NCBI GenBank assembly: GCA_964559455.1
Contig: CAZLHO010000003.1
Span: forward strand, 42,963 to 106,962
Source of the DNA: an uncultured Fibrobacteraceae bacterium
Lineage (GTDB): Bacteria > Krumholzibacteriota > Krumholzibacteriia > LZORAL124-64-63
Reading direction: 5' to 3'
DNA: 64,000 nucleotides
The notes beneath the pieces are model-generated. The model was not told the origin of the DNA. It worked only from the letters and a program-made list of their open reading frames with translations, and searched no databases. Positions 13,528 through 41,499 of the stretch are shown here, piece by piece. Each line of letters begins with the position of its first letter. The stretch's first letter is position 1. Position numbers and translations under genes: made by a program.

Positions 13528-14673
13528 CTAGAAGACGTCCACGTAGAGCCCGTCGCGCATCAGGGGGCGCGGGCCGTCGGGGCCGTCGAGGTCGACCGAG
13601 ACGACCCGGATGCGGGGCTGCACCTCGGGGATGTAGACGCGGTCGATGTGGACCACGGCCTCCGGCGAGGAGAAGTCGCCCGGGCCCACGACGCCGCCGA
13701 AGTGGTCGCTGCGCCCGAAGGCCACGTGCAGGCCCAGCTTCTCGTCCAGCAGGATGCTGCCGGTCGGCGCCAGGCCGAAGTCGCCGAGCACGCCCAGGCC
13801 CAACTCCGAGAGGTTGGCGTAGGCCGGCTCGTCGACGATGCGGCGGGCCTCGGCCCTGCTCGCCTCGCCCTCGCTCAGCACTGCGACGGCGCGGTTGCCC
13901 TCGATGCGGTAGACGACGACCTCGTCGCCGAACTGCACGGGCAGCTCGCCGCGGCCGCCGCTGGGGTCGCCCGGGCGCTCGCCCTCGTAGGGCACGATGT
14001 AGGTCTCGCCCGAGGGCAGGTTGCCGGCGACGCCGTTGGCGGGGAAGAGGCCGCCCGAGGCGTGGCTCTCGCGGTGGCGCAGGTCCAGGTCGAGCCGGTG
14101 CTCGCGGCCGTCGGCGGCCAGGACCAGGCGGGCCCCGACGGCCGGATCCAGCAGCTCCTTGAGCGCCAGCACGCGCCGGTTGACCTCGCCGTAGTCGATC
14201 CTCAGGGCGGGGATCATCGACGGCAGGAAGCCGGGCATCGTCGCGGCCCGCAGGGCGCGCCCGCGGCAGGCCACCTTCATCGGCGCGGTGGCCGAGAGCT
14301 CGGTCGGGGCCAGCACCATGCTGTGGGCCGCGAAGAGCTCGGCGAAGGGCAGGGTCGCGCGGCCGGCCAGCTCGTCGGCGTGGTGCAGCGCCGCGCCACC
14401 GGGGGCCGGGACGCAGTCCGGCGGCAGGTCGGCGTTGTTGCCCCCGGCGTTGCGGTACCAGGCCAGGGTCACCGTTGCCGGGGCGCCGGCGGCGCCGTCC
14501 AGCAGGCGGACCCACTCGGCGGCCATCCCGCGCCGGGCGCGCCAGTCGGGGTTGTCGGCCACGCGGGCGTCGGGCAGGTCCACGATCACGGCCAGGCCGC
14601 GATCGTCGTCGCCGGGAAGGAAGACGCGCCGGACCAGTTGGACGAGGTCGTCTGCGGACAGGGATTCGTTCAT
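13528..14673 (-). CDS. Hypothetical protein, possibly aminopeptidase-like (M29-type)
   Basis: ATG at 14673 (MNESLSADDLVQLV...). 381 aa. Upstream part of the longer ORF is Arg-rich artefact. Functional call is weak. Confidence 0.5.
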   Translation of the reverse strand: MNESLSADDLVQLVRRVFLPGDDDRGLAVIVDLPDARVADNPDWRARRGMAAEWVRLLDGAAGAPATVTLAWYRNAGGNNADLPPDCVPAPGGAALHHADELAGRATLPFAELFAAHSMVLAPTELSATAPMKVACRGRALRAATMPGFLPSMIPALRIDYGEVNRRVLALKELLDPAVGARLVLAADGREHRLDLDLRHRESHASGGLFPANGVAGNLPSGETYIVPYEGERPGDPSGGRGELPVQFGDEVVVYRIEGNRAVAVLSEGEASRAEARRIVDEPAYANLSELGLGVLGDFGLAPTGSILLDEKLGLHVAFGRSDHFGGVVGPGDFSSPEAVVHIDRVYIPEVQPRIRVVSVDLDGPDGPRPLMRDGLYVDVF

Positions 14674-14854
14674 GGGGATCGCTCCGGAGTCTGGAGAGGT
14701 GGGATGACCGTGCCGGGCGGCAGTATAGCATCGTCCCCGGGCCGCGGGAAGGATTTGGGTGGCACTCCACGCGCCCATGTGGCTATGTTGCAACCGGAAA
14801 ACGGCGCGGCCCCCTTCCGGGACTCCGCCCCGCAACGTCTGCAAGGAGCTCCGC

Positions 14855-15979
14855 ATGAGCCAGAACCGCGAGACCAACCTCGCCCTTTTCATCGATTTCG
14901 ACAACGTCGCCCTGGGCGCGCGCGACGCGCGCAAGCGCTTCGACATCCGCCCCGTGCTCGAGCGCATCCTCGAGAAGGGCAAGATCATCATCAAGAAGGC
15001 CTATGCGGACTGGAGCTACTACCAGGACTACATGGCCGACCTGCACGGGGCCGCGATCGAGCTGATCGAGGTGCCCTCGCCCCGGGTCAGCGGCAAGAAC
15101 AGCGCCGACATCCGCCTGGTCGTGGACGCCATGGACCTGTGCTACAGCAAGGACCACATCGACACCTTCGTCATCATCTCGGGCGACTCCGACTTCTCGC
15201 CCCTGGTGTCGAAGCTGCGCGAGAACAACAAGTCGGTCATCGGCATCGGCATGAAGGATTCCAGCTCGAAGCTGCTGATCCGCAACTGCGACGAGTTCAT
15301 CTTCTACGACGACATCATGCACGCGCCGGCGCCGGCTCGCGCGGTGCGTCTGGACGACGTCCCGCCCGAGAAGCGCAAGCTCTTCAGCCTGATCCTGACC
15401 ACCCTGCAGGGCCTGATGCTCGAGCACAAGGGCGTGCTCTACTCGTCGCTGATCAAGGACACGATCAAGCGCAAGAAGCCCGACTTCAATGAGGGCAACT
15501 GGGGCTACGGCTCGTTCGGCGAGCTGCTGGAGGACGCCCAGGCCCACGGCCTGCTCTCCGCCCGCCGCGACGAGGCCGCCGGCGGCACCTGGGTCGTCGA
15601 GGCCCTGGGCGGCGAGGCCGCGCCGGCGCGCCAGGGCAACGGACGCAAGACCTCGCGCCGGCGTTCGCGCCGCCGGGGTGGCGCCGGAGCCCGCGAGGGC
15701 GCCGACAGCCAGGCCGCGGCCGAGACCCCGGCCGAGAAGAAGGCGTCGGCCGCAGCGGCCGAGAAGAAGGCGCCGGCTCCCGCGGCGGAGGCCGCCCCGG
15801 CGAAGAAGGGCGCGAAGAAGACGACGGCCGCCAAGGCCACGGCCGCGAAGAAGAAGACGACGGCGAAGAAGACGACCGCCGCCAAGAAGACGACGGCGAA
15901 GAAGACGACGGCCAAGAAGACCACCACGCGCAAGAAGACCGCCAAGAAGGCCGCGACGAAGAAGGCGGCCGGCAGCTAG
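14855..15979 (+). CDS. NYN-domain (LabA-like) + OST-HTH/LOTUS protein with Lys/Ala/Thr-rich histone-H1-like C-terminal tail
   Basis: ATG 14855 with RBS aaggag. LALFIDFDNVALG NYN signature. KRKLFSLILTTLQGLM...GYGSFGELLEDAQ OST-HTH-like region. ~110-aa tail of AKK/TTAKK repeats. Confidence 0.8.
   Translation: MSQNRETNLALFIDFDNVALGARDARKRFDIRPVLERILEKGKIIIKKAYADWSYYQDYMADLHGAAIELIEVPSPRVSGKNSADIRLVVDAMDLCYSKDHIDTFVIISGDSDFSPLVSKLRENNKSVIGIGMKDSSSKLLIRNCDEFIFYDDIMHAPAPARAVRLDDVPPEKRKLFSLILTTLQGLMLEHKGVLYSSLIKDTIKRKKPDFNEGNWGYGSFGELLEDAQAHGLLSARRDEAAGGTWVVEALGGEAAPARQGNGRKTSRRRSRRRGGAGAREGADSQAAAETPAEKKASAAAAEKKAPAPAAEAAPAKKGAKKTTAAKATAAKKKTTAKKTTAAKKTTAKKTTAKKTTTRKKTAKKAATKKAAGS
15700..15976 (+). 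repeat. Low-complexity coding repeat (AAKK/TTAKK units) encoding the Lys/Ala-rich tail
   Basis: Reiterated gccaagaag / acgacggcgaagaag units. Confidence 0.6.
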
Positions 15980-27051: not shown

Positions 27052-27181
27052 GAGCCTATCTCCTCGCTCGCGTGGGACGACCCCCCGTGGACGTCGGGGG
27101 GCAGGGGATGTTATTTGTGCAACGTTGCGAATCTACTGGACTTCGCGACGGTTTTCCACGGAAAACTGACCGCGCCCGGAG

Positions 27182-27844
27182 CTAGGCGCCGGAGCCGAAG
27201 ATCCCCTCGATCGCGATCCGCGACCAGTCCTCGAAGCTGCCGCCGTCGGGCGCGGCGCCGGGACCGGTCATGCCGACCAGGTCGCCGACGGGCAGCCACA
27301 GCGCCCGGTGGGGCTCGGCCTGGGCCGAGACCAGGGCGACCAGCGCGTCGTCATCCTCGGGCCGCGCATCCAGGTCCACCCGGAAGACCACGCCGAAGTG
27401 CACGCTCGAGACGTCCTCGCGGTCGGAGTTGATGAACCCCGCCGGGCGCAGGGCCTCCGAAGCCACCGACAGTCCGGTCTCCTCGTCCAGTTCGCGCAGG
27501 GCGCCGGCCAGCACCAGGCCGTGCACCGCGGCCTCGCCCCGATCGCGGTCCAGGGGCTCGATGTGTCCGCCGAAGCCCACCGACCACAGGCCGCCCAGCC
27601 GGCTCTCGGAGTGGTCGCCGCGCCGCTGGTAGGCCAGCACGCGCGCCTGGGCCCCGCGGCCGCGCTGCAGCACGAGGTAGGGGATGATCTGCTTGAAGTG
27701 CGAGTTGCGCTCCATGAAGTCGCGCTCGGCGAAGAAGAGGTGGGGATGGATCGCCTCGAGGTCGATGGAGACCTCGGGCAGGAAGCCCTGGGGGCTCAGC
27801 CCCGGAAAGAGGTGCTTGCGGTCGAGGACGAGGATGCTGCGCAA
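27182..27844 (-). CDS. NUDIX hydrolase
   Basis: NUDIX box GGHIEPLDRDRGEAAVHGLVLAGALRELDEETGL. Confidence 0.8.
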   Translation of the reverse strand: MRSILVLDRKHLFPGLSPQGFLPEVSIDLEAIHPHLFFAERDFMERNSHFKQIIPYLVLQRGRGAQARVLAYQRRGDHSESRLGGLWSVGFGGHIEPLDRDRGEAAVHGLVLAGALRELDEETGLSVASEALRPAGFINSDREDVSSVHFGVVFRVDLDARPEDDDALVALVSAQAEPHRALWLPVGDLVGMTGPGAAPDGGSFEDWSRIAIEGIFGSGA

Positions 27845-27871: not shown

Positions 27872-28708
27872 TCAGTCGGCGGCGCGCAGGCCGGCCGTGG
27901 CGGCCCGGAAGGCCTGGCGCTCGCGGCGGCGGGGGTGGTCGTTCATGTCGTAGGCCGCCAGCTCGGCGCGGGCCCTCGCGATGCGGTCGTCGGTGTTCGG
28001 ATGGGTGCTGAGCCAGCCGGCGAAGCCGGTGGGGCCGACGCCGTGCATCTGCGCCAGCTTGCCGAAGAAGTCCAGCATCGCGGCCGGGTCGTAGCCCGCC
28101 ATGTAGGCGTGCTTGACGCCGAACTGGTCGGCCTGGAATTCGTGGTCGCGGCTGTTCTTCATCATGAAGAGCCCGCCGCCCATGCCGGCCACCTGGCTCC
28201 AGAGCTGCTCGCCGGCGGCGTCGCCGAGCACGAGCTGGGCGGCCATCTGCAGGCCCATGGCGCTCTGCATCTGCCGCACCGAGTGGCGGCCGACCACGTG
28301 GCCGACCTCGTGGCTCAGGACGCAGGCCAGCTCGGCCTCGTCGTCGGCCATGGCCAGCAGGCCGGTCGTCACGTAGATGAAGCCGCCGGGCGCGGCGAAG
28401 GCGTTGACCACGTCGCTCTGCAGCACGGTGAAGGTGTAGTCCACGTCCTTGCGCTCGCTGTGGGCGGCGACCTGCGCGCCCACGCCCTGCACGTAGGCGC
28501 TCAGGGCCGCGTCCTGGACCACGGGGTATTCCTGGCGGATCCCCTTGTCGGTCTCCAGGCCCATGCGGACCTCGGTGGGGGTGTCGATCAGGATCAGGCT
28601 GCGCTCGCCGTGCGGGCCGGTGGTGGCGCAGCCGGCCAGCAGCGCGGCCAGCGCGGCGAGAAGGACCAGCGCGGACGCGGCGGCCGGGATTCGACGACGG
28701 CGGTTCAT
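27872..28708 (-). CDS. M48-family zinc metalloprotease lipoprotein
   Basis: Lipobox ALLAGC. HEVGHVVGRH HExxH motif. M48/BepA-like length and pattern. Confidence 0.85.
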   Translation of the reverse strand: MNRRRRIPAAASALVLLAALAALLAGCATTGPHGERSLILIDTPTEVRMGLETDKGIRQEYPVVQDAALSAYVQGVGAQVAAHSERKDVDYTFTVLQSDVVNAFAAPGGFIYVTTGLLAMADDEAELACVLSHEVGHVVGRHSVRQMQSAMGLQMAAQLVLGDAAGEQLWSQVAGMGGGLFMMKNSRDHEFQADQFGVKHAYMAGYDPAAMLDFFGKLAQMHGVGPTGFAGWLSTHPNTDDRIARARAELAAYDMNDHPRRRERQAFRAATAGLRAAD

Positions 28709-28778: not shown

Positions 28779-30083
28779 CTAGGGCAGGAAGCCGCGCACG
28801 TCCGAGAGCTTCTGCGGCAGGTACTCCTCGATCACGTAGTTCAGCCCGTGCTTGGCCAGGGCCTGCTGCTCGGCGCGCACCCCCATCTTGATCATCTGCA
28901 GCAGCGCCAGCTGCCACGGCTTGTGGTGGATCACGAAGGGGTCGTTCTTCAGGGCGTCCTTGGCCCGCTTGATGTCCACGTCCTTCAGGGGGTGGGTGGG
29001 CAGCTCGTAGTCCACGATGTCCTGCGGCGTGATGCCCAGGAAACGGGCCTGGGGCACGCAGAAGAAGCGGTTCAGGTGGGCGGCGTTGCCGCTGCCCACC
29101 TTCAGGGTGCGGTAGATGTTCATGAAGCCGTAGGGGTCGCCGTCGACGAAGACGTAGACCGGGATCTTCTTGGCGTCCGACAGGCGGCGCACGAAGCGGC
29201 GGCAGGCGCGCGTGGGCACGCCGCCCATCGAGATCAGGATGCAGCCGGCGTGCTTCCAGTAGTTGTGCTTCACCAGGCGCTGGAACATGCCCGCGGTCTC
29301 GATGCAGAGGATGAACTTGGCGTCGGTCTCGAAGCCCAGCTCCTCGACCGAGATCGGGATCGAGTAGGCGCCGCTGCCGAACTTCGTGCAGTCGATGCGC
29401 AGCTCCTCGCCGGTCTCGCCGTCGCGGTCGATCACGACCAGGCGCCCGGCCACGTCGCCGCCCTTCTCCTCGGGCACGAAGCCCATCTGCTCGCGGTTCA
29501 CGCCGTAGAAGGCCTCGACGTCCTCCATCACCGCGTCCGACTCGGGCTGCTCGCCGAAGCGGGCGTCCGCCCAGTTCTTGCTGACGTAGTAGGCCTCTCG
29601 CTTGGTGGCGATGTCGTCGGTCTCGACCAGTTCCTTGGACAGGGCCATCATCTTCAGGGTCTGGGCGAAGGTCTTGACCGTGCTCACGGTCAGGGTGCGC
29701 TCCTTGGTGCGGCCGCGCAGCTCGAAGAAGCCGACCTTGGGCTGGTAGCTGACGTTCTGCAGCGAGCGCAGCGGGAAGCGCAGCGACGGCTTGTCGCCCT
29801 TCAGGATCCGGCCTCGCACCGTGGCCGCCTCGTCGTGGATGCGCCCGAGCAGGGCGCCGCGGTCGTCGGGACCCTTCTTGGCGGCTCCGGCGGCCTTGCC
29901 CACGGCGGCCTTTGCCTGAGCGGTCTTCACGGGGGCCGTCCTGGCCGGCGCTTTTCCGGCGGCGGCCTTCTTCGCCGGCGCCGTCTTCTTCGGCGGCGGC
30001 CCGAAGGCCAGCTCGGCCTGCTTGTCGCCGGCCTTGGCGGGCGCCTTCTTCCCGGCGGTCTTCTTGCGCTTGTCCTGCGGCAA
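28779..30083 (-). CDS. top6A: Type IIB DNA topoisomerase VI subunit A (Spo11/Top6A homologue) with Lys/Ala-rich N-terminal extension
   Basis: TKREAYYVS (catalytic Tyr, 5Y-CAP). ILCIETAGMF and YVFVDGDPYG (Toprim DxD). ~75-aa KKAPAKAG/KTAPAKKAAAGK tail. TTG start at 30083. Confidence 0.8.
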   Translation of the reverse strand: MPQDKRKKTAGKKAPAKAGDKQAELAFGPPPKKTAPAKKAAAGKAPARTAPVKTAQAKAAVGKAAGAAKKGPDDRGALLGRIHDEAATVRGRILKGDKPSLRFPLRSLQNVSYQPKVGFFELRGRTKERTLTVSTVKTFAQTLKMMALSKELVETDDIATKREAYYVSKNWADARFGEQPESDAVMEDVEAFYGVNREQMGFVPEEKGGDVAGRLVVIDRDGETGEELRIDCTKFGSGAYSIPISVEELGFETDAKFILCIETAGMFQRLVKHNYWKHAGCILISMGGVPTRACRRFVRRLSDAKKIPVYVFVDGDPYGFMNIYRTLKVGSGNAAHLNRFFCVPQARFLGITPQDIVDYELPTHPLKDVDIKRAKDALKNDPFVIHHKPWQLALLQMIKMGVRAEQQALAKHGLNYVIEEYLPQKLSDVRGFLP

Positions 30084-30110
30084 CGCTTTGCCTCCGTGCG
30101 CGGCGAGGGG

Positions 30111-31619
30111 CTAGAGCCCGTAGAGCTCGCCGTACTTCTGGTTCAGGTAGTCCGCGAAGGGCGCGATCGACAGGTCGCGTCCGGTGACCTCGCGGCACAG
30201 GTCGGGGGCGGCCAGCAGCCGGCCCTTGACGTGGATCCGGCCCCGCAGCCAGTTCAGCAGCGGCGCGAACTCGCCCCGCGACGCCTGCTGCTGCAGGTCG
30301 CCCAGGTCCTCGGCGGCCTTCGCGTAGAACTGCGCCGCGTAGAGGTTCCCCAGGCTGTAGGTCGGGAAGTAGCCGAAGCTGCCGAAGGCCCAGTGGATGT
30401 CCTGCAGCACGCCCTCGGCGTCGTCGGTCGGCGTCAGCCCCAGGTACTCGCGCATCTTCTCGTTCCAGAGCCCGGGCAGGTCGGCCACGGCGATCTCGTC
30501 GCGGAAGAGCGCCGTCTCGAGCTCGGTGCGCAGCACGATGTGCAGGTTGTAGGTCATCTCGTCGGCCTCGATGCGCACGGGCGAGCGGCGCACGACGTTG
30601 GCGGCGCGATACAGGGCCTCGTCGTCGGCGTCGCCGAAGGCCTCGGGGAAGAGGCGCGTCAGCAGCGGCCGGCAGTGGGACAGGAAGGCGCGGCTGCGGC
30701 CGACCATGTTCTCCCAGAGCCGGGACTGCGATTCGTGGATGCCCAGGCTCGCCGCCTCTCCCATCGGGGTGCCGGCGTGCTCGACCGGGAAGCCCTGCTC
30801 GTAGAGGCCATGGCCGCCCTCGTGCAGGGTCGAGAAGAGCGAGTTCGAAAGGTCGCCGGTGTCGTAGTGGGTCGTCAGGCGCACGTCGCGCGGATCGACT
30901 CCCGAGGTGAAGGGATGCCGCGAGACGTCCAGGCGGCCGCGCCGGAAATCGAAGCCCATGATCTCCAGCACCCGCGTCGCTAGCTCCTGCTGCCGGGCGA
31001 CGGGGAAGCTGCCGCGCAGCAGGGCGTCGTCGTGGCGTTCGCCGCGGTCCACGACGGCCGCGACCAGGGGCACGAGCAGATTCTTCAGCTCGGCCAGCAG
31101 GGGCAGCAGGGCCGCGGTGGTCATGCCGGGCTCGTATTCGTCGAGCATGGCGTCGTAGGGCTCGCCGGCGTAGCCCACGCATTCGGCCTCGCGGCGGCGC
31201 AGCGCCGCCAGGCGCTCCAGGTTGGGGGCGAAGCGCGCCCAGTCGCGGGCGGCGCGGGCCTCGGCCCAGGCCTGCTGGGCCAGGCTGCCTTCGCGGGTCA
31301 GCTCGGTCACCAGCTCCTTCGGCACCTTCACGGCCCGGTCGCGGTCGCGGCGCGCCTCGCGCACGTTGGCCGCCTGCTCGGGCGTCAGGCCGTCGGCGGC
31401 CGCGAGCTCGTCGATCATCGCGCCCAGGGCCGGGTCGACCACCCGGTCGTGGACGATGCCGGACAGGGTGGCCCGCGAGCGGGCCCGCCCGGCGATCCCC
31501 TCGGGGGGCATGTAGGTCTCCTGATCCCAGGACAGCAGGGACTGGGCGGCGTTCAGGTCGTGGACCTCGCGGATATGCGCGAGGAAATCGGCATGGATTC
31601 CGGCGATACGTTCGGACAT
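30111..31619 (-). CDS. M32 carboxypeptidase (Taq-type thermostable carboxypeptidase family)
   Basis: HEGGHGLYE HExxH motif, HESQSRLWEN and DIHW motifs. ATG 31619 preceded by GGGAGG. Confidence 0.85.
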   Translation of the reverse strand: MSERIAGIHADFLAHIREVHDLNAAQSLLSWDQETYMPPEGIAGRARSRATLSGIVHDRVVDPALGAMIDELAAADGLTPEQAANVREARRDRDRAVKVPKELVTELTREGSLAQQAWAEARAARDWARFAPNLERLAALRRREAECVGYAGEPYDAMLDEYEPGMTTAALLPLLAELKNLLVPLVAAVVDRGERHDDALLRGSFPVARQQELATRVLEIMGFDFRRGRLDVSRHPFTSGVDPRDVRLTTHYDTGDLSNSLFSTLHEGGHGLYEQGFPVEHAGTPMGEAASLGIHESQSRLWENMVGRSRAFLSHCRPLLTRLFPEAFGDADDEALYRAANVVRRSPVRIEADEMTYNLHIVLRTELETALFRDEIAVADLPGLWNEKMREYLGLTPTDDAEGVLQDIHWAFGSFGYFPTYSLGNLYAAQFYAKAAEDLGDLQQQASRGEFAPLLNWLRGRIHVKGRLLAAPDLCREVTGRDLSIAPFADYLNQKYGELYGL

Positions 31620-31680
31620 GGGGAACCTCCCGGGTTCGGGCACGGGGAGGAAAAGGTGACGCCGCCGGGAGGGGGCGGCC

Positions 31681-33393
31681 TTACATCTTGCGGCTGCGTT
31701 CCAGGGTGTCGGTGAGCGTGACGATGATGTCCTCGCGCTCGTCCTCCTTCAGGCCCAGGATGTCGCGCAGGGCATCCCCGATGTGCGGGATGTACTTCTG
31801 GATGTAGCTCTGCTTCTTCAGGGCCTCGCGCTCGCGCACCCGGCGCCGGATGTGGCGCTGCAGCTGCCGGCCGGCCTCCTGCAGGCCCAGCCGGATCTCC
31901 TTGACGATCTCCGGGTAGTGGGCCACGGCCTCCTTGCTCTCCGACGTGAAGGGCACCCACACCGAGGCCATGTGCACCAGGATCACCAGCGGGCCGGTGG
32001 GCAGCGCGCCCCGCGACTGCTGCATGCCGTAGCTGCGCCAGTTGTTGGCGAGCACCGCCTTGTGGATGGCGCAGGCCGAGGCCTGGTAGAGCAGGGGCAC
32101 GCGGTTGGCGAAGCGCAGCACCTCGGCCAGCTCGTCGCCGGGCAGGTCGCCGCCGTAGGCCAGCCCGACCTCGATCTGGAAGGGGTTGCCGCGGTAGACG
32201 GCCGCGGGACGGGTCACCGCCGTGTAGAAGTCGGCCCGGATGCGCTGCTCCAGGCCCTTGAGCACCAGCTCGGCCCCGATCGGCGACAGGCAGTCGGTGG
32301 GCGGCGAGGGGATGCGCGTCTCGCCGATGGCGTCCAGCAGCGCCTGCACGTCCTCCTGGCCCAGCAGCCGCGGATTCTTGCGGGCGGGAAAGCCCGCGGC
32401 CTCCAGGACCTGGCCCGCGGTCTTCGGGCCGACGCGGCAGAATTCGTTGCGCAGGAACGCGGTCAGGTTGCGGCTCTTGGTCTCCTTGAGCATCTGCAGC
32501 ATGCGGCCCAGCTCGACCCCGTAGGGGTGGGGCCGGATCTCGGCGGCCTCGACCGGCAGCTCGTCGGCGGCCCGGGCGTAGACCACCTCCTCGCCGCGCG
32601 GGTTGCGGTAGACCAGGCGCACGTGGGGGTTGGCCACGGCCGTCTGCTGCAGGTAGGTGTCGACGGAGTGGTGGCCGCGCTTGTACGAACCCGCCAGCTC
32701 GATCTCCACGCGGGTGCCGTGCTCCACGTCCCAGGGCGCGGTCTCGTCCTTCTGGACCACGGGCTCGTTGCGCTTCATGTCCAGGGTCAGCTCGCAGCGC
32801 CGGGCCTCGGGCATGTCCTTGGTGCGGCTCAGGACGACCACCGGCTTGCCCGTGGTCAGCTGCCCGTACATGCCGGCGGCCGAGATGCCGATGCCCTGCT
32901 GGCCCCGGCTCTGGCGCAGGCTGTGGAACTTCGAGCCGTAGAGCAGCTTGCCGAAGATGCGCGGCACCTGGGCGCGCACGATGCCCGGGCCGTTGTCCTG
33001 GACCACGACCCGGAAGCGCTCCTCGCGCTGCGGAGGGGCGGCGCCGCGGCGTCGGCCGTTGCTCTTGCCGTTGCCGTTGTCCTCGGCGTGGGCCTCGCCG
33101 CCGTCCATCTCCAGGGAGGCCGCCGCGCGGTTCTTGCCGTTGCCGTTGGCCTGCACGGGCTGGATCTCGACCAGGATGTCGGGCAGGATCCCGGCCTCCT
33201 CGCAGGCGTCCAGGGCGTTGTCGACGGCTTCCTTGATCGTGGTCAACAGGGCCTTGGCCGGGGAGTCGAAGCCCAGCAGGTGGCGGTTCTTCGTGAAGAA
33301 CTCGCTGATCGAGATCTCCCGCTGCTTCTTCGCCATGCTCTGCGCGGTGGCGGCGGTGTGGTTGCGGGATGACTTGCGCGCGGTGGCAGGCAT
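31681..33393 (-). CDS. top6B: DNA topoisomerase VI subunit B (GHKL ATPase + transducer)
   Basis: Bergerat-fold N-box EAVDNALDA, G1 DNGPGI, G2 GQQGIGISAAG, H2TH-like and transducer regions. ATG 33393 with RBS aaggaacggag. Low-complexity insert between the N-box and G1. Confidence 0.8.
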   Translation of the reverse strand: MPATARKSSRNHTAATAQSMAKKQREISISEFFTKNRHLLGFDSPAKALLTTIKEAVDNALDACEEAGILPDILVEIQPVQANGNGKNRAAASLEMDGGEAHAEDNGNGKSNGRRRGAAPPQREERFRVVVQDNGPGIVRAQVPRIFGKLLYGSKFHSLRQSRGQQGIGISAAGMYGQLTTGKPVVVLSRTKDMPEARRCELTLDMKRNEPVVQKDETAPWDVEHGTRVEIELAGSYKRGHHSVDTYLQQTAVANPHVRLVYRNPRGEEVVYARAADELPVEAAEIRPHPYGVELGRMLQMLKETKSRNLTAFLRNEFCRVGPKTAGQVLEAAGFPARKNPRLLGQEDVQALLDAIGETRIPSPPTDCLSPIGAELVLKGLEQRIRADFYTAVTRPAAVYRGNPFQIEVGLAYGGDLPGDELAEVLRFANRVPLLYQASACAIHKAVLANNWRSYGMQQSRGALPTGPLVILVHMASVWVPFTSESKEAVAHYPEIVKEIRLGLQEAGRQLQRHIRRRVREREALKKQSYIQKYIPHIGDALRDILGLKEDEREDIIVTLTDTLERSRKM

Positions 33394-33501
33394 GAGACTC
33401 CGTTCCTTCCTGCCGGGAAGGGCTGACCAGAGGTTGCTGTTCGTGCGGCCCAACAGTACGGGAGGGCCCGGGCGATTGCAAGCCGGGCCTGACGGCGGGG
33501 G

Positions 33502-36573: not shown

Positions 36574-37617
36574 CTAGCGGAAGAGGGCCTTGACGCGGCC
36601 CAGGGTCCGGGACTCGGCCGGCACCGGCACGTTGTCGCAGAGGATCTCGAGAGTGAAGGCGCCGTCGCCCTCGAAGTCGCCGCCCTCGGTGGTCAGGGGG
36701 CGGAAGGCGTCCACGCCCAGGTAGAAGACCCCGGCTTCGCCGGTGTCGTTCTCGTAGTCCAGCACCTCGCCGACCCCGGCCAGGCCCCGGTCGACGGCGG
36801 CCACGCAGACGGCGTCGGGGCCGACTCCGGAGAAAAGCCAGAGGGCGCCGTCGAAGACGATCTGGCTCAGCTCGGCGCGGAAGACGGCGGTATCCGGCAG
36901 GGTGACGGCGAACCAGACCTCGCCGCCCTTCTCCAGGTAGTCGGAGCAGCCGGCCGCGGCCGTCAGCAGGTCGGGCCGGTCGAAGATGTTGTCCAGGGCC
37001 GTGGCCCCCTCGACGTTGCAGGCCAGCGGCCGGGCGGCGGCGGCGACGGCGGGGTCCAGCCCCGCGGCGCCGGCGGCCAGGCTCAGCTCGTAGGCGCCCG
37101 CCGCGGCCGTGGCCGGATCCTGGCCCAGCCCGTCGACCACCAGCAGGTAGTCGCCGGCCTCGAGCTCGACGGCGAATTCGGCGTTGGCCCAGGCCACGCA
37201 GGCGTCGCTGTCGCAGTCCGAGAGCAGCAGCACGTCCAGGTCGGGCACCGGGTCCAGCAGCACGTGCAGCCGGGCGGCCTCGGGCAGGTGCAGGCGATAG
37301 AGATCCTCGCCGCCGGCCAGGAACCAGGCGGCGCAGGGGTAGTCCGAGACGCGGTCGGGCGCGGTCGAGGTGTCGCCGCTCCACGTGGTGTCGAATCCGG
37401 CGGTCACGGTGATCAGGGGCGCGGCGGCGCAGTCGATGGGCACGCGCAGCGGCGCGACGGCCGGCTTCGCGGGCAGGACGCGGGCGGGCTCGTCCTTGGG
37501 GAGCGCGACGGGGGGATGAGTGACGGGGACGCCGGCGCCTTGGCCCGGGCCTGCGGCGGCCAGGACCCAGAGGGCGATAGCGAACGGGATCGAGCTGTCT
37601 AAACGAAGGCGGCGCAT
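36574..37617 (-). CDS. Secreted protein with two PPC-like repeats, ending in conserved tail ...VPVPAESRTLGRVKALFR
   Basis: ATG 37617 with RBS gagga. Signal peptide. Internal duplication (SDYPCAAWF... / CSDYLEKGGEVWF...). C-terminal tail shared with the 12732..13271 protein. Confidence 0.65.
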   Translation of the reverse strand: MRRLRLDSSIPFAIALWVLAAAGPGQGAGVPVTHPPVALPKDEPARVLPAKPAVAPLRVPIDCAAAPLITVTAGFDTTWSGDTSTAPDRVSDYPCAAWFLAGGEDLYRLHLPEAARLHVLLDPVPDLDVLLLSDCDSDACVAWANAEFAVELEAGDYLLVVDGLGQDPATAAAGAYELSLAAGAAGLDPAVAAAARPLACNVEGATALDNIFDRPDLLTAAAGCSDYLEKGGEVWFAVTLPDTAVFRAELSQIVFDGALWLFSGVGPDAVCVAAVDRGLAGVGEVLDYENDTGEAGVFYLGVDAFRPLTTEGGDFEGDGAFTLEILCDNVPVPAESRTLGRVKALFR

Positions 37618-37831
37618 CGAGGTCCTCACTGGGGGTACGGGAAGGCGGCGTCCTCAAACGATAGCACATGAGCGCGCAGGCGGCCAAGGTCCAGGGTCTG
37701 GGCCGGGATGCGGGCGCCGTCTCCACCGCTTGACCGGGTCGGAAAGGCGATGATACTATTCCCGGCGGTCGCCAAACCCTGATGAATCAGGGCGATGGGC
37801 GCACAAGCCGGGGCGGCGCCGCACGAAGTCA

Positions 37832-38331: not shown

Positions 38332-39935
38332 AGAAAGCCGTGATCATCGGGGCGGGCCCCGCCGGTCTGACCGCCGCCTGGGAACTGCTCGACCGCACCG
38401 ACGTGAAGCCGGTCGTCTTCGAGGCGACCGGGGCCATCGGCGGCATCTCGCAGACGGTCGAGCACAACGGCAACCGCATGGACATCGGCGGGCACCGTTT
38501 CTTCTCGAAGTCGGACCGCGTCATGGACTGGTGGCGCAACATCATGCCGCTGCAGGGGGCGCCCGCCCGCGACGATCTCGCCCTCGGCCGCGAGGTGCCG
38601 CTCGCGCAATCGACGCGCCAGCGGCCCCTGGGCGACGGCGGCGCGGTCGATGTCCCGGCCCCCGATCCCGAGCGGACCGACAAGGTGATGCTCTACCGCC
38701 AGCGCCTGTCGCGGATCTTCTACCTGCGCAGCTTCTTCAGCTACCCCGTCTCGCTCACGTTGCAGACGATGCGCAACCTGGGCCTGGTCCGGATGGCCCG
38801 CATCGGGATCAGCTACGTCTGGGCGCGGCTGTTCCCGATCCGCGAGGAGAAGTCGCTCGAGGACTTCTTCATCAACCGCTTCGGCCGCGAGCTCTACGCC
38901 ACCTTCTTCAAGGACTACACCGAGAAGGTCTGGGGCGTGCCCTGCGACATCATCAAGCCCGAGTGGGGCGCCCAGCGGATCAAGGGCCTGAGCATCACCA
39001 AGGCCGTCATCCACGCCGTCGGCCAGCTGACCCGCCGCGACCGGTCCATCGACCAGAAGAACATCGAGACCAGCCTGATCGAGCAGTTCCTCTATCCCAA
39101 GCTGGGCCCGGGGCAGATGTGGGAGGAGGTCGCCCGGCAGGTCGCCGGCGGCGGCGGCGAGGTGCACTTGCACAGCGAGGTCAGCGGCCTGATCCTGCGC
39201 GACGGAGCCGTTGTCGGGGTGCGCGTGCGCGACGCGCGGACCGGGCAGACCGTCGATCACGACTGCGACCTGGTCTTCTCCACGATGCCGATCAAGGACC
39301 TGGTCGAGCGCGTCGACGGCGAGGTCCCGGCCGAGGCGCAGGAGGTCGCCGGCGGCCTGATGTACCGAGACTTCATCACGGTCGGGCTGCTGCTGGACAA
39401 GCTGCTGATCAGCAACGAGACCGACCGGCCGACCGTCGGCGGCATCGTCCCCGACAACTGGATCTACATCCAGGAGCGCGACGTCAGGCTGGGGCGCCTG
39501 CAGATCTTCAACAACTGGAGCCCCTACATGGTCGCCGATCCGTCCCAGACCTGGATCGGCATGGAGTATTTCTGCAACGAGGGCGATGATCTGTGGTCGA
39601 TGTCCGACGCCGACTTCGCCGACTTCGCCGTCGCCGAGCTCGCCAAGATCGACATCTGCGATCCGGCGGACGTCCGCGACAGCGTCGTGATCCGGATGCC
39701 CAAGACCTACCCCGCCTATTTCGGCACCTACGACCGCTTCGACGAGCTGCGCCGCTGGGCCGACGGGATCGGGAACCTCTATCTGATCGGCCGCAACGGG
39801 ATGCACCGCTACAACAACCAGGACCACTCCATGCTCACCGCCATGACCGCGGTCGACAACATCCTCGCCGGGCGCCTGGACAAGGCGAACATCTGGGACG
39901 TGAACGCGGAAGAGGAGTACCATGAGCAGAAGTGA
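38328..39935 (+). CDS. FAD/NAD(P)-binding oxidoreductase (amine-oxidase/UDP-galactopyranose-mutase-like)
   Basis: ATGA overlap with gtr[17 protein letters not shown] dinucleotide-binding motif. ~535 aa. Confidence 0.8.
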
Positions 39936-41499
39936 TCGGGACTGGCCGGCGCCGCGGTCCGGCCGCTACGTGCTGCTCTACCTGATCCTCGGCGCGGTCC
40001 TGCTGCCCTTCTTCCGGCACCAGATCAACTCGGACGGCCTGTCCTACATCTCCATCGCGATGCGTTACGCCGCCGGCGACCTGGCCGGAGCGGTCAACGG
40101 CTACTGGGGGCCGCTGCTCTCGTGGCTGATGGTCCCGCTGATCGCCCTGGGGATCGAACCGCTGCTGGCCGGCAAGATCGTCAGCCTGGGCCTGGGCGCC
40201 GCCGCCGCCGCGGGGCTGGTCCGGTTGGCCCGGTTCATGCCCCTGACCGAGAAGCTGCGGTGGATCACGCTGCTCTCGCTGCTGCCCTTCCTGGCGACGG
40301 CCTCGCTGCGCGCGCTCTTCCCCGACCTGCTGGTGGTGGCCCTCATGCTCCACTACCTGGCCTTCGTCTTCGCCGACGGCTACGAGGACCGCCTGCGCAA
40401 CGGCCTGTGGTGCGGACTCCTGGGCGGCCTGCTCTACTACGCCAAGGCCTACGGCTTCTACGTCTTCCTGCTGCACTTCGCCGTGATGGGCCTGCTGCGC
40501 CTGCTGCGCGCGGACGACGGGCGCCGCCGGCTGGCCCTGGTGCGCAACCACGCCCTCGGGCTGGCGGTCTTCGCCGTGCTGGCGGGCGCCTGGATCGGCG
40601 TGCTCAGCGCCCGCTACGGGGAGCCGACGATCAGCACGACCGGCGTCTTCAACCACGCCCTGGCCGGGCCCGCCTCGCGCGGGCAGCCGATGCATTATCT
40701 GGGCTTCCTGCCGCCCCAGGACGAGCGGGCCTTCAGCGCCTGGGAGACGCCCACCACGATCCCCATCGCCGACTGGTCGCTGCGCGATCCCGGCGGCCTG
40801 CGCCACCAGCTCGGGTTGCTGAAGGACAACCTCAAGCTGCTGGGCAGGGACATCACGGCCTATTCCCGCCTGATGGCGCTGATCCTCGTCGGGTCGCTGC
40901 TGCTGTGCGTCCAGCCGCTCCGCCGGCTGCTGCGCGACGGCCCCACGCTCTATCCCCTGGTCACCGTCGCCGTCTTCCCGGCCGGCTACCTGCTGATGCT
41001 GCTCGAGGTCCGCTACGTCTGGATCTGCCCGCTGCTGATCACCCTGATGGGGGCCCGGCTGCTCGGGATGTTCATGGAATCCGGCCTGGGCACCCGCCCT
41101 CGCCGCATCGCCGCGATCGCCCTGTTCGTCGTCTCGGTGATCATCTATCCGGTCAAGCTGATCGTCCAGGGCGTCGGCCAGGGCGAGCGGGTGCGCGCCG
41201 TCGCGGCGACGCTGGCCGACCTGGGGCTGGAGCGCGGCGCGCGCACGGCGTCGAACCGTGAATGGGCCGACTCCCTGTACCTGGCCTACCATCTGGATTC
41301 GCGATATTACGGCGAGCGGGGCGACCTGACCGACGAGCAGGTCGCGGCCGCGCTGCAAGAGTACCGGGTGCGCTACTATCTGGTCTGGGATCCGGAGCCG
41401 GCCGCGGCCGCGCCGCGGGAGGGATGGACCGAGATCACGGCCGGCAGGGTGCCGCGCCTGGCGGTCTACGAGGCGCCCCGGGAAAGCGTGGGACAATGA
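39922..41499 (+). CDS. Polytopic membrane glycosyltransferase (GT-C, ArnT/PMT-like) with C-terminal soluble domain
   Basis: ~11 predicted TM helices. Forms the GtrA/oxidoreductase/GT-C cassette. 14-bp overlap upstream. Confidence 0.7.

What the first reader, a model, noticed from the sequence alone, without database searches (positions are those of the whole stretch)
28779..33393. Bacterial topoisomerase VI encoded as top6B - M32 carboxypeptidase - top6A, with a histone-H1-like tail on Top6A
Seen: a GHKL ATPase with N-box, G1 and G2 plus a transducer region (Top6B, 31681..33393). A Spo11/Top6A homologue with REAYY catalytic Tyr and a DGD Toprim motif (28779..30083). An M32 carboxypeptidase gene inserted between them with only 27 and 61 bp gaps (both gaps verified by coordinate arithmetic), all on the same strand. 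Top6A carries a 75-aa Lys/Ala/Pro-rich N-terminal extension. Established: Topo VI is archaeal/eukaryotic and only sporadic in bacteria, and subunits A and B are normally adjacent. Inference: an operon in which a peptidase is interleaved between the two subunits is unusual, as is the H1-like DNA-binding tail. It may reflect a functional linkage or an ancient insertion.
Basis: partly seen in the sequence, partly recalled or inferred. Interest (0 to 1): 0.6.

Follow-up and report, generated by a model that had tools for sequence, protein, structure and literature searches.

The report
Bacterial topoisomerase VI with clamp-binding-like tail
This is a genuine archaeal-type DNA-untangling enzyme (topoisomerase VI) in an uncultured bacterium: the peptidase gene between its two subunit genes looks like a conserved passenger, and the enzyme's basic tail carries a conserved short motif resembling those that dock proteins onto the bacterial replication clamp.

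Summary
On the minus strand lie top6B (31681..33393), an intact M32 carboxypeptidase gene (30111..31619) and top6A (28779..30083). The gaps are 61 and 27 bp, and Top6A has a ~80-aa Lys/Ala/Pro-rich N-terminal tail.

The B-M32-A order is not an assembly error. It recurs in at least 10 independent assemblies of Krumholzibacteriota-like MAGs, sometimes with overlapping stop and start codons. One relative nested in that clade has B-A adjacent. Eisenbacteria-labelled relatives carry unrelated genes (cyclase, kynureninase-like) in the same slot. M32 is therefore best read as a lineage-specific passenger in a permissive operon position, not a Topo VI partner.

The tail is the more interesting part. 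Inside it is a short motif, QAELAF (30003..30020).
- 100 of 111 related Top6A tails carry it; composition-preserving shuffles give 0.4.
- It matches the published beta-clamp-binding consensus and resembles E. coli Pol III alpha QVELEF.
- In Eisenbacteria-labelled relatives the same kind of motif (QEELLF, QSDLF and others) sits on the Top6B N-terminal tail instead.
- The closest archaeal relatives lack N-terminal tails.

I infer a DNA-binding tail that also tethers Topo VI to the sliding clamp. This is untested, and the motif is not universal among bacterial Topo VI.

The parts
31681..33393 (-). top6B (570 aa): GHKL ATPase, H2TH and transducer; short N-terminus with no clamp-binding-like motif
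33013..33159 (-). Clade-specific Asn/Gly-rich low-complexity insertion (Top6B residues ~79-127) inside the GHKL domain
   Evidence: The split alignment to M. mazei 2q2e_B jumps from query residue 78 to 128. The insertion is present in all 10 Krumholzi-type loci and absent from Eisenbacteria-labelled, Planctomycetota-labelled and archaeal-labelled loci.
30111..31619 (-). M32 (Taq-type) carboxypeptidase gene, 502 aa, catalytic motifs intact, no signal peptide evident
   Evidence: PF02074 at 1.4e-174. ATG preceded by GGGAGG. The same position in 10 related loci.
28779..30083 (-). top6A (434 aa): basic N-terminal tail, 5Y-CAP and Toprim
29844..30083 (-). Lys/Ala/Pro-rich N-terminal tail of Top6A (residues 1-80), predicted unstructured
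   Evidence: Composition, net charge +15 and GC3 0.93 in frame. AF2 pLDDT is below 50 with no secondary structure for residues 1-72, though the model is poor overall. Basic tails of median 77 aa occur in 120 relatives.
30003..30020 (-). QAELAF (Top6A residues 22-27): conserved short linear motif matching the beta-clamp-binding hexapeptide consensus
   Evidence: Read. Q22 and F27 are at least 90% conserved in an otherwise variable tail. 100 of 111 tails carry the motif against a shuffle mean of 0.37. Synonymous codon changes occur within the motif. The consensus Q-phi-x-[L/M]-x-[F/L] comes from bioRxiv 10.1101/2025.08.20.671105.
29586..29600 (-). REAYY: R162 and catalytic Tyr166
   Evidence: Aligned to REAYY of M. 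jannaschii 1d3y. Invariant in 40 relatives.
29136..29144 (-). Toprim DGD (D314, D316); Toprim Glu262 lies at 29298..29300
30091..30095 (-). GGAGG Shine-Dalgarno sequence 7 nt before the TTG start of top6A
27872..28708 (-). M48 metallopeptidase lipoprotein gene, same strand, 70 bp downstream of top6A
   Evidence: PF01435 at 5e-37. LAGC lipobox in the translation. Present in 7 and absent from 4 of the 11 Krumholzi-type relatives.
27182..27844 (-). NUDIX hydrolase gene, same strand, conserved downstream neighbour
   Evidence: PF00293. Conserved in L001, L002, L024 and L061-L066.
27172..27189 (-). The only terminator-like hairpin on this strand between top6B and the malate dehydrogenase gene; likely end of the transcription unit

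Best explanation
The region encodes a complete, catalytically intact type IIB topoisomerase (Topo VI) of an uncultured, high-GC, Krumholzibacteriota-like bacterium. It is probably expressed as one transcript, top6B-M32-top6A(-M48-NUDIX). The M32 carboxypeptidase gene is a lineage-specific insertion into a permissive slot between the subunit genes. It is co-expressed with the enzyme but not mechanistically part of it. The ~80-residue Lys/Ala/Pro-rich N-terminal tail of Top6A is translated and disordered. I propose it has two roles. The first is non-specific DNA binding, which raises local concentration or processivity. The second works through the embedded QAELAF motif, which would dock the enzyme onto the beta sliding clamp (DnaN). 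Clamps are left on newly replicated DNA, so this would place a preferential decatenase where precatenanes and crossings arise. Shown: gene identities, catalytic residues, conserved synteny, composition and conservation of the tail, the motif and its complementary placement on the A or B subunit. Inferred: co-transcription, DNA binding by the tail, and clamp binding.
For: Identity and intact motifs are shown. For the operon, all genes share one strand, the gaps are 61, 27 and 70 bp with SD sequences, and no terminator-like site occurs before 27189. In relatives the M32 stop overlaps the top6A start (L061, L065) or lies 2 bp from the top6B stop (L062). For M32 as a passenger, B-M32-A is found in 10 relatives: L001, L024, L002, L061-L065 and L068. 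L066 has B-A adjacent within the same NUDIX/MDH/M14 neighbourhood and nests inside the M32 clade in an NJ tree. Eisenbacteria-labelled loci have PF04199 cyclase, with or without a PF00266/PF22580 kynureninase-like gene, in the same slot. The tail is translated: GC3 is 0.93 in frame and the motif is conserved at protein level with synonymous changes. The motif is found in 100 of 111 Top6A tails against a shuffle mean of 0.37 and maximum of 4. It is on Top6A only in 10 Krumholzi-type loci, on Top6B only in the Eisenbacteria-labelled loci with a complete Top6B (one of them, L007, only as a QLALL-type variant), and on neither N-terminus in 8 archaeal-labelled loci. 24 of 24 long Top6B tails in the closest Eisenbacteria-type group carry it: 18 hexamers of the form QxxLxF and 6 pentamers of the form Qx[SD]LF. 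This 5-mer/6-mer duality and the sequences QSDLF and QVDLF match the canonical CBM QL[S/D]LF. QAELAF fits Q-phi-x-[L/M]-x-[F/L] and differs at two positions from Pol III alpha QVELEF; RecB QVEMEF binds the clamp with Kd 2 uM. A prediction was also met: P0068 was called without the motif, yet QGVLAFGAP lies in frame upstream of the called start in the 374-bp gap after M32. Lysine-rich tails confer processivity on actinobacterial TopA (PMC5714199). Topo VI is a preferential decatenase (PMC8837201).
Against: There is no binding data and no structure of a complex, and DnaN of this organism was not available. Position 2 of the motif is aliphatic (A) in the window but is mostly G, P or Q in relatives, which departs from the published consensus. 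The motif is not universal. L067 has a K-rich Top6A tail but no motif on either subunit, and the L069/L070 lineage has none either. 57 of 102 more distant Top6B tails show no recognisable motif. Co-transcription is inferred from layout alone. I found no paper linking any bacterial type II topoisomerase to a clamp-binding motif, so there is no precedent to lean on.
Confidence: 0.6

Rival explanations
1. The peptidase is functionally coupled to Topo VI, for example by trimming a subunit C-terminus or regulating enzyme turnover, and that coupling is why it sits between the subunit genes.
For: The position is conserved and tightly packed, sometimes translationally coupled, across at least 10 loci whose Top6A is 72-88% identical to the window's. 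A second peptidase gene (M48) often follows top6A.
Against: L066, nested in the clade, lacks M32 but keeps the neighbourhood. The Eisenbacteria-labelled clade has unrelated metabolic genes in the same slot. L002 has an additional methyltransferase there. M48 is missing from L002, L063, L064 and L066. The Top6A and Top6B C-termini are conserved and show no extension to trim. M32 enzymes are broad-specificity cytosolic carboxypeptidases (my own knowledge).
Confidence: 0.1
2. The conserved QxELxF motif is a real short linear motif but binds a partner other than the beta clamp, such as an SMC/condensin component or another replisome or nucleoid protein, or it contacts the enzyme itself as an autoinhibitory or subunit-bridging peptide.
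For: Position 2 is often G, P or Q rather than aliphatic, and the FGAP flank is conserved beyond the CBM core. E. coli Topo IV is recruited through MukB rather than the clamp (PMC3950513, PMC5061553).
Against: The motif works from either subunit's N-terminus, which argues against a fixed intramolecular contact. Both pentamer (Qx[SD]LF) and hexamer (QxxLxF) forms occur, plus QLxLxx forms in more distant lineages. That spectrum is the one described for clamp-binding motifs. I know of no other bacterial motif class that fits as well.
Confidence: 0.25
3. The tail is only a generic polycationic DNA-binding or nucleoid-targeting extension of the kind common in high-GC bacteria, and the motif has no separate function.
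For: Basic K/A/P tails are frequent on DNA-binding proteins; actinobacterial TopA is one example (PMC5714199). L067 has a tail without the motif.
Against: The rest of the tail drifts freely in length and sequence, while Q, E, L and F are kept in 93-98 of 98 tails. Shuffles give 0.37 expected against 100 observed. The motif carries an acidic residue and two hydrophobic residues in an otherwise basic, non-hydrophobic tail.
Confidence: 0.1
4. The B-M32-A order or the long Top6A ORF is an assembly, binning or start-codon artefact.
For: The sequence is metagenomic. 70% GC keeps spurious frames open.
Against: A near-identical gene order (Top6A differs from the window's by one tail residue) occurs on contigs from two separate ENA samples, and the same order occurs in NCBI, JGI and ENA assemblies of diverged relatives. 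SD plus TTG, in-frame GC3 and protein-level motif conservation support the long ORF.
Confidence: 0.01

Closest known systems
Archaeal topoisomerase VI (M. mazei 2q2e, S. shibatae 2zbk, M. jannaschii Top6A 1d3y)
   Same: It has the same two-subunit architecture and domains: GHKL, H2TH and transducer on B, 5Y-CAP and Toprim on A. All catalytic motifs are present. Sequence matches are very strong (E=2e-115 and 4e-152).
   Different: The host is bacterial. Top6A has a ~60-80-aa basic N-terminal tail with a clamp-binding-like motif. Top6B has a ~49-aa N/G-rich insertion in the GHKL domain and lacks the extra C-terminal region of the 621-aa M. mazei Top6B: its alignment to that chain ends near chain residue 494. 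An M32 gene lies between the subunit genes.
Bacterial beta-clamp-binding motifs: canonical QL[S/D]LF; Pol III alpha QADMF and QVELEF; RecB QVEMEF
   Same: QAELAF fits the published hexapeptide consensus Q-phi-x-[L/M]-x-[F/L]. It sits in a disordered terminal region, as Hda, Pol IV and MutS motifs do (my own knowledge). Relatives show both 5-mer and 6-mer forms.
   Different: No type II topoisomerase was listed among clamp partners in the papers I could search. Position 2 is often non-aliphatic in relatives. Binding is untested.
Lysine-repeat C-terminal domain of actinobacterial topoisomerase I (TopA)
   Same: It is a Lys/Ala-rich, low-complexity extension on a topoisomerase in high-GC bacteria, shown to stabilise the enzyme-DNA complex and raise processivity (PMC5714199).
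   Different: That enzyme is type IA and the extension is C-terminal. I am not aware of an embedded protein-docking motif in it (not checked in the paper).
Recruitment of E. coli Topo IV by MukBEF
   Same: It follows the same logic: a decatenase is positioned by docking onto a chromosome-bound machine (PMC3950513, PMC5061553).
   Different: The contact there is between the folded ParC C-terminal domain and the MukB hinge, not a short linear motif binding the sliding clamp.
Taq carboxypeptidase family (MEROPS M32)
   Same: It gives a full-length PF02074 match at 1.4e-174 and has the HEGGH zinc site.
   Different: Only the genomic position, inside a Topo VI operon, differs.

Membership tests
Topoisomerase VI (type IIB), subunit A | 5Y-CAP domain with Arg and catalytic Tyr (RxxYY) | tested here: met
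   REAYY at residues 162-166 aligns to REAYY of 1d3y. PF04406 gives 4e-15. Invariant in 40 relatives.
Topoisomerase VI (type IIB), subunit A | Toprim domain with metal-binding Glu and DxD | tested here: met
   PF21180 gives 9e-59 over profile positions 1-170 of 170. E262, D314 and D316 are invariant.
Topoisomerase VI (type IIB), subunit A | Score above a curated equivalog cutoff (NCBIfam) | tested here: not met
   The best model is NF003337 at 487.6 bits against a cutoff of 675. These cutoffs belong to narrow sub-models, and all three Pfam domain cutoffs are passed. I therefore read this as a divergent lineage, not as non-membership.
Topoisomerase VI (type IIB), subunit B | GHKL/Bergerat fold with N-box, G1 and G2 | tested here: met
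   EAVDNALDA, DNGPGI and GQQGIGIS align with archaeal Top6B. PF02518 and PF13589 are above cutoff.
Topoisomerase VI (type IIB), subunit B | Transducer domain and full-length equivalog score | tested here: met
   PF09239 gives 1e-59. NF003218 scores 684 bits against a cutoff of 274, and TIGR01052 scores 534 against 381. The FTSESKEA stretch aligns with FTSESKDA of M. mazei; that this lysine is the ATPase switch lysine is my own reading, not tested here.
Topoisomerase VI (type IIB) | ATP-dependent strand passage (relaxation and decatenation) by an A2B2 enzyme | not testable with these tools
   Requires purified protein.
Peptidase M32 (carboxypeptidase Taq) | Full-length family profile match and HExxH zinc site | tested here: met
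   PF02074 scores 581.8 bits against a cutoff of 25.1 over profile positions 3-489 of 489. HEGGH, HESQS, HPF and IEADE are readable in the translation. The motif list is from my own knowledge.
Beta-clamp (DnaN) binding proteins | Sequence match to the CBM consensus (QL[S/D]LF; Q-phi-x-[L/M][F/L]; Q-phi-x-[L/M]-x-[F/L]) | tested here: met
   The window's QAELAF fits the hexapeptide form. Relatives are mixed: position 2 is G in 43, A in 22, P in 14 and Q in 12 of 98 tails.
Beta-clamp (DnaN) binding proteins | Motif lies in an accessible, unstructured region and is conserved among orthologues | tested here: met
   pLDDT is below 50 with no secondary structure for residues 1-72, in a low-quality model. 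100 of 111 tails carry the motif against a shuffle mean of 0.37. Placement on A or B is complementary.
Beta-clamp (DnaN) binding proteins | Physical, motif-dependent binding to the hydrophobic cleft of DnaN | not testable with these tools
   No multimer prediction was possible and the cognate DnaN was not available. This is the decisive missing test.
Histone-H1-like / KAP-rich DNA-binding tails | Lys/Ala/Pro-dominated low-complexity composition with high net positive charge | tested here: met
   A 29%, K 21%, P 11%, net charge +15 over 80 residues, against net +5 over the 354-residue core.
Histone-H1-like / KAP-rich DNA-binding tails | Demonstrated DNA binding or compaction | not testable with these tools
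   Inference from composition and the TopA precedent.
Operon (single transcription unit top6B-M32-top6A) | Co-transcription | tested here: inconclusive
   Same strand, short gaps, SD sites, no terminator-like site before 27189, and overlapping stop/start codons in relatives. There are no RNA data.

The most novel reading that the evidence does not exclude
Topo VI of this lineage is a sliding-clamp client in both domains. The archaeal (Woesearchaeota/Nanoarchaeota-labelled) enzymes carry a conserved Q-x-x-L-x peptide at the extreme C-terminus of a charged Top6B tail, plausibly a minimal PCNA-binding peptide. After transfer into bacteria the enzyme was re-fitted with an N-terminal basic tail bearing a beta-clamp-binding motif, on Top6A in Krumholzibacteriota-like lineages and on Top6B in Eisenbacteria-labelled ones. 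As far as my literature searches show, this would be the first type II topoisomerase directly tethered to the bacterial replisome clamp, and an example of a horizontally acquired enzyme being plugged into the host machinery by swapping a short linear motif.
Probability: 0.4. Interest if true: 0.75.

Novelty: new variant of a known kind. Interest (0 to 1): 0.55.

Why it matters
Bacterial Topo VI has hardly been studied. How it is deployed alongside, or instead of, gyrase and Topo IV is unknown. A conserved clamp-binding-like motif gives a concrete and cheaply testable hypothesis for where and when it acts: behind replication forks, on clamp-marked sister duplexes. That fits the recent finding that Topo VI is a preferential decatenase. 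The placement of the motif on either subunit, and its absence from the N-termini of the closest archaeal relatives, would also be a clear case of a transferred enzyme adapting to a new cellular machine through a short linear motif. The M32 interleaving itself matters less. It shows that the slot between the subunit genes tolerates unrelated cargo, so gene adjacency here should not be read as functional coupling.

Tried and rejected
- Assembly artefact was rejected. A near-identical gene order occurs on contigs from two separate samples, and the same order in diverged relatives.
- M32 as a universal partner was rejected because of L066 and the Eisenbacteria-labelled loci.
- A canonical PIP box (Qxx[LIMV]xx[FYWH][FYWL]) was not found in the Top6A or Top6B C-terminal regions that were scanned, in archaeal-labelled or bacterial loci.
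- The AF2 model of Top6A from a 40-sequence alignment was poor (mean pLDDT 58, pTM 0.41). I used it only for the unstructured residues 1-72 and ran no fold search.
- The universality of the motif failed as a prediction. L067 has no motif on either subunit, L069/L070 have none, and L071 was uninformative because the contig ends there.
- The sigma-70 promoter scan found nothing useful near top6B.
- Rfam and tRNA scans of the whole window found nothing.
- Literature searches for a Topo VI-clamp link, a Topo IV-CBM link, or Topo VI in Krumholzibacteriota or Eisenbacteria found no report.
- The NJ tree is a midpoint-rooted distance tree. I used it only for clade membership, not for the direction of transfer.


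Full report
**1. What is in the sequence**

The window is about 70% G+C. On the minus strand, three long ORFs with GC3 of 0.95-0.98 occupy the stated coordinates.

The first ORF (31681..33453) most plausibly starts at the ATG at 33393, which follows AGGAAGGAA. This gives a 570-aa Top6B.
- It passes two curated full-length equivalog cutoffs: NF003218 at 684 bits (cutoff 274) and TIGR01052 at 534 bits (cutoff 381).
- It has the transducer domain (PF09239, 1e-59).
- It matches M. mazei Top6B 2q2e_B at E=4e-152.
- The N-box, G1 and G2 motifs are intact.

The second ORF is a full-length M32 carboxypeptidase (PF02074, 1.4e-174). It starts at the ATG at 31619, which follows GGGAGG. The HEGGH and HESQS motifs are present.

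The third ORF (28779..30083) is Top6A.
- All three Top6A/Spo11 Pfam domains are above cutoff.
- It matches M. jannaschii Top6A 1d3y at E=2e-115.
- R162, Y166, E262, D314 and D316 are invariant among 40 relatives.

Downstream on the same strand lie an M48 lipoprotein peptidase gene and a NUDIX gene. The only terminator-like hairpin follows at 27189..27172, and a malate dehydrogenase gene comes after it.

The rest of the window is ordinary chromosome. It holds Rnf genes, sugar and polysaccharide genes, glutamate dehydrogenase and a two-component system. There are no mobile-element genes, no tRNA or Rfam hits, and no gyrase, Topo IV or DnaN.

**2. Whose genome, and is the gene order real?**

The closest Top6A proteins (70-88% identical in the core) come from metagenome bins. 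Where a source names them, the name is Candidatus Krumholzibacteriota or Krumholzibacteria.

A Top6A that differs from the window's by a single tail residue lies in the same gene order on contigs from two separate ENA samples.

The order top6B-M32-top6A recurs in L001, L024, L002, L061, L062, L063, L064, L065 and L068. L063 is GCA_035392125.1, named Ca. Krumholzibacteria. These loci come from ENA, NCBI and JGI assemblies.

In L061 and L065 the M32 stop overlaps the top6A start. In L062 only 2 bp separate top6B from M32. The layout therefore behaves as a compact operon. Misassembly is excluded.

**3. Is the peptidase functionally tied to Topo VI?**

The comparative evidence says probably not.
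- L066 has the same neighbourhood (glycosyltransferases upstream, NUDIX-MDH-M14 downstream). It nests within the M32-bearing clade in an NJ tree of Top6A. Yet top6B and top6A are adjacent there.
- L002 has an additional SAM-methyltransferase gene between M32 and top6A.
- M48 is present in some relatives and absent in others.
- In the neighbouring clade, labelled Eisenbacteria, the same slot holds a PF04199 cyclase (kynurenine-formamidase-like) gene. This occurs alone in 13 loci, and together with a class-V aminotransferase/kynureninase-like gene in 6 loci. In L003, L004 and L040 the slot is empty.
- One archaeal-labelled locus (L022) has an unknown 215-aa ORF in the slot.
- Six Planctomycetota-labelled top6A loci have no top6B in the flanks held, which reach up to 8 kb upstream where the contig allows.

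The slot between the two subunit genes therefore repeatedly accepts unrelated housekeeping genes. I read M32 as a conserved passenger that benefits from, or is neutral to, co-expression.

**4. The tail**

Residues 1-80 of Top6A are 29% Ala, 21% Lys, 11% Pro and 11% Gly, with net charge +15. The 354-residue core has net charge +5.

The tail is in the coding frame by GC3: 0.93 against 0.71 and 0.61 in the other frames. Sixteen of its 17 Lys codons are AAG. The TTG start has a GGAGG sequence 7 nt upstream.

An AF2 model was poor overall (mean pLDDT 58). It gave pLDDT below 50 and no secondary structure for residues 1-72.

Basic tails are the rule in this clade. The median is 77 aa over 120 relatives, with net charge typically +10 to +30 and up to +51. 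'H1-like' is a fair description of the composition.

**5. A conserved motif inside the tail**

Tail sequences otherwise drift freely, but nearly all contain Q-x-E-L-x-F, usually followed by G-A-P. In the window this is QAELAF, residues 22-27, at 30003..30020.
- 100 of 111 tails of at least 40 aa have Q..[LMIF].F or Q..[LM]F. A thousand composition-preserving shuffles give a mean of 0.37 and a maximum of 4.
- Q22 and F27 are at least 90% conserved in the 40-sequence alignment.
- Codons vary synonymously within the motif (CAG/CAA, GAG/GAA, CTG/CTC), so the constraint acts on the protein.

The placement of the motif is complementary between the two subunits.

| Group | Motif on Top6A tail | Motif on Top6B tail |
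|---|---|---|
| 10 Krumholzi-type loci | yes | no |
| Eisenbacteria-labelled loci | no (tails short) | yes, on a long basic N-terminal tail |
| 8 archaeal-labelled loci (Woesearchaeota/Nanoarchaeota) | no N-terminal tail | no N-terminal tail |

The Eisenbacteria-labelled Top6B motifs include QEELLF, QEEFLF, QGELLF, QAELSF, QEELSF, and the five-residue forms QTALF, QTGLF, QQDLF and QEDLF. L007 carries only a QLALL-type variant.

In a separate search with an Eisenbacteria-type Top6B, all 24 long tails in the closest group carry the motif. Eighteen are hexamers and 6 are pentamers such as QSDLF and QVDLF. Shuffles expect 0.03 of each. More distant Top6B tails show QLSLVP, QLALLE, QLTLVE and QLKLKL types in 19 cases, and nothing recognisable in 57 of 102.

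**6. What the motif resembles**

A recent preprint summarises the bacterial clamp-binding motif. The canonical form is QL[S/D]LF. The revised consensus forms are Q-phi-x-[L/M][F/L] and Q-phi-x-[L/M]-x-[F/L]. The Pol III alpha motifs are QADMF and QVELEF. RecB QVEMEF binds the clamp with Kd about 2 uM in an F-dependent way (bioRxiv 10.1101/2025.08.20.671105).

Four points favour a clamp-binding reading.
- QAELAF fits the hexapeptide consensus exactly and differs from QVELEF at two positions.
- The coexistence of 5-mer, 6-mer and QLxLxx variants is what is described for clamp-binding motifs.
- The motif lies in a disordered terminal region.
- It works from either subunit.

The last point argues against a fixed intramolecular contact and for a portable docking peptide.

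I therefore propose that the tail both binds DNA non-specifically and tethers Topo VI to DnaN. Lysine repeats on actinobacterial TopA are a precedent for the first role (PMC5714199). Topo VI is a preferential decatenase acting at DNA crossings (PMC8837201). Clamps remain on newly made DNA (my own knowledge). Tethering would therefore concentrate the enzyme where precatenanes form. This is functionally analogous to MukB-directed Topo IV in E. coli (PMC3950513, PMC5061553).

**7. Caveats**

- Binding is not shown, and I could not model a complex or obtain the cognate DnaN.
- In relatives, position 2 of the motif is mostly G, P or Q rather than aliphatic.
- Out-of-sample checks were mixed. P0068 was annotated without the motif, but QGVLAFGAP lies in frame upstream of the called start, in a 374-bp 'gap' after M32. 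This counts as a hit and implies a mis-called start.
- L067 has a K-rich Top6A tail and no motif on either subunit, and the L069/L070 lineage has none. The feature is clade-specific, not universal.
- I found no publication linking a bacterial type II topoisomerase, or Topo VI in any domain, to a clamp-binding motif. The only related item is Topo VI subunits co-purifying with NucS, PCNA and RFC in P. abyssi pull-downs (PMC4929162). The searchable library is limited.

**8. Side observation that fits the same theme**

The Woesearchaeota/Nanoarchaeota-labelled Top6B relatives have a variable charged C-terminal tail. In 93 of 120 proteins it ends in Q-x-x-L-x at the very C-terminus, with consensus QTTL[F/I]. 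Shuffles give a mean of 0.21. This is not a canonical PIP box. It does resemble the first five residues of archaeal C-terminal PIP peptides (my own recollection, not checked). It may be the archaeal counterpart of the bacterial motif.

**9. Verdict**

The interleaved peptidase gene is real, conserved within one clade and most likely incidental to Topo VI function. The tail is real and more than 'H1-like': it carries a conserved clamp-binding-like motif. That motif is the feature worth following up.

As a kind, this is a new variant of a known enzyme system. My confidence by component:

| Claim | Confidence |
|---|---|
| Topo VI identity | ~0.97 |
| Tail is translated | ~0.9 |
| M32 is a passenger | ~0.75 |
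| Motif binds the clamp | ~0.5 |

Noticed in passing
Proteins P0241-P0360; loci L020, L022, L044, L045, L046 (Top6B C-termini): Woesearchaeota/Nanoarchaeota-labelled Top6B relatives end in a variable charged tail. The extreme C-terminus is Q-x-x-L-x (consensus QTTL[F/I]) in 93 of 120 proteins, against a shuffle mean of 0.21. It may be a minimal PCNA-binding peptide, parallel to the bacterial N-terminal motif.
   Followed up: partly
window 33013..33159 (-), Top6B residues ~79-127: A ~49-aa Asn/Gly-rich low-complexity insertion lies in the GHKL domain between the N-box helix and G1. It is present, with variable sequence, in all 10 Krumholzi-type loci. It is absent from Eisenbacteria-labelled, Planctomycetota-labelled and archaeal-labelled loci and from M. 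mazei Top6B. Its function is unknown.
   Followed up: partly
L005-L010, L014, L018, L026, L028, L031-L033, L035, L038, L039, L043, L049, L050: In Eisenbacteria-labelled loci a PF04199 cyclase (kynurenine-formamidase-like) gene lies between top6B and top6A. In six loci a class-V aminotransferase/kynureninase-like gene (PF00266, PF22580) lies there as well. This is a second, independent filling of the same slot.
   Followed up: partly
L013, L015, L016, L017, L021, L023: Planctomycetota-labelled top6A loci (69-73% identical to the window's Top6A) have no top6B in the flanks held (up to 8 kb upstream where the contig allows). The subunit genes appear unlinked there.
   Followed up: no
L068:4329-4701: The called start of Top6A (P0068) is probably too far downstream. 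The 374-bp 'gap' after M32 is open in frame and encodes the conserved motif QGVLAFGAP. P0119 (L063), called without any tail, likewise has QGELVF in frame upstream of its called start.
   Followed up: yes
L011, L012, L020, L022, L025 and the NJ tree: The bacterial Top6A clade is 61-74% identical to Woesearchaeota/Nanoarchaeota-labelled Top6A. Its best PDB match is M. jannaschii (E=2e-115), far better than M. mazei or S. shibatae. This suggests inter-domain transfer involving a DPANN- or Methanococcales-like lineage. The direction and timing were not established.
   Followed up: partly
P0227 (1150 aa): One Top6B homologue carries additional intein/LAGLIDADG-type Pfam domains (PF14528, PF14890) according to the precomputed annotation. 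It is presumably an intein-containing Top6B.
   Followed up: no
window 27872..28708 (-) and 30111..31619 (-): Two unrelated metallopeptidase genes flank top6A: cytosolic M32 upstream and lipoprotein M48 (BepA/LoiP-like, LAGC lipobox) downstream. M48 is present in only some relatives.
   Followed up: partly
window 36574..37629 (-), 39922..41499 (+), 13528..14994 (-): Three sizeable high-GC3 ORFs (351, 525 and 488 aa) have no Pfam match at E<=1e-4. They are uncharacterised proteins next to the polysaccharide gene cluster.
   Followed up: no
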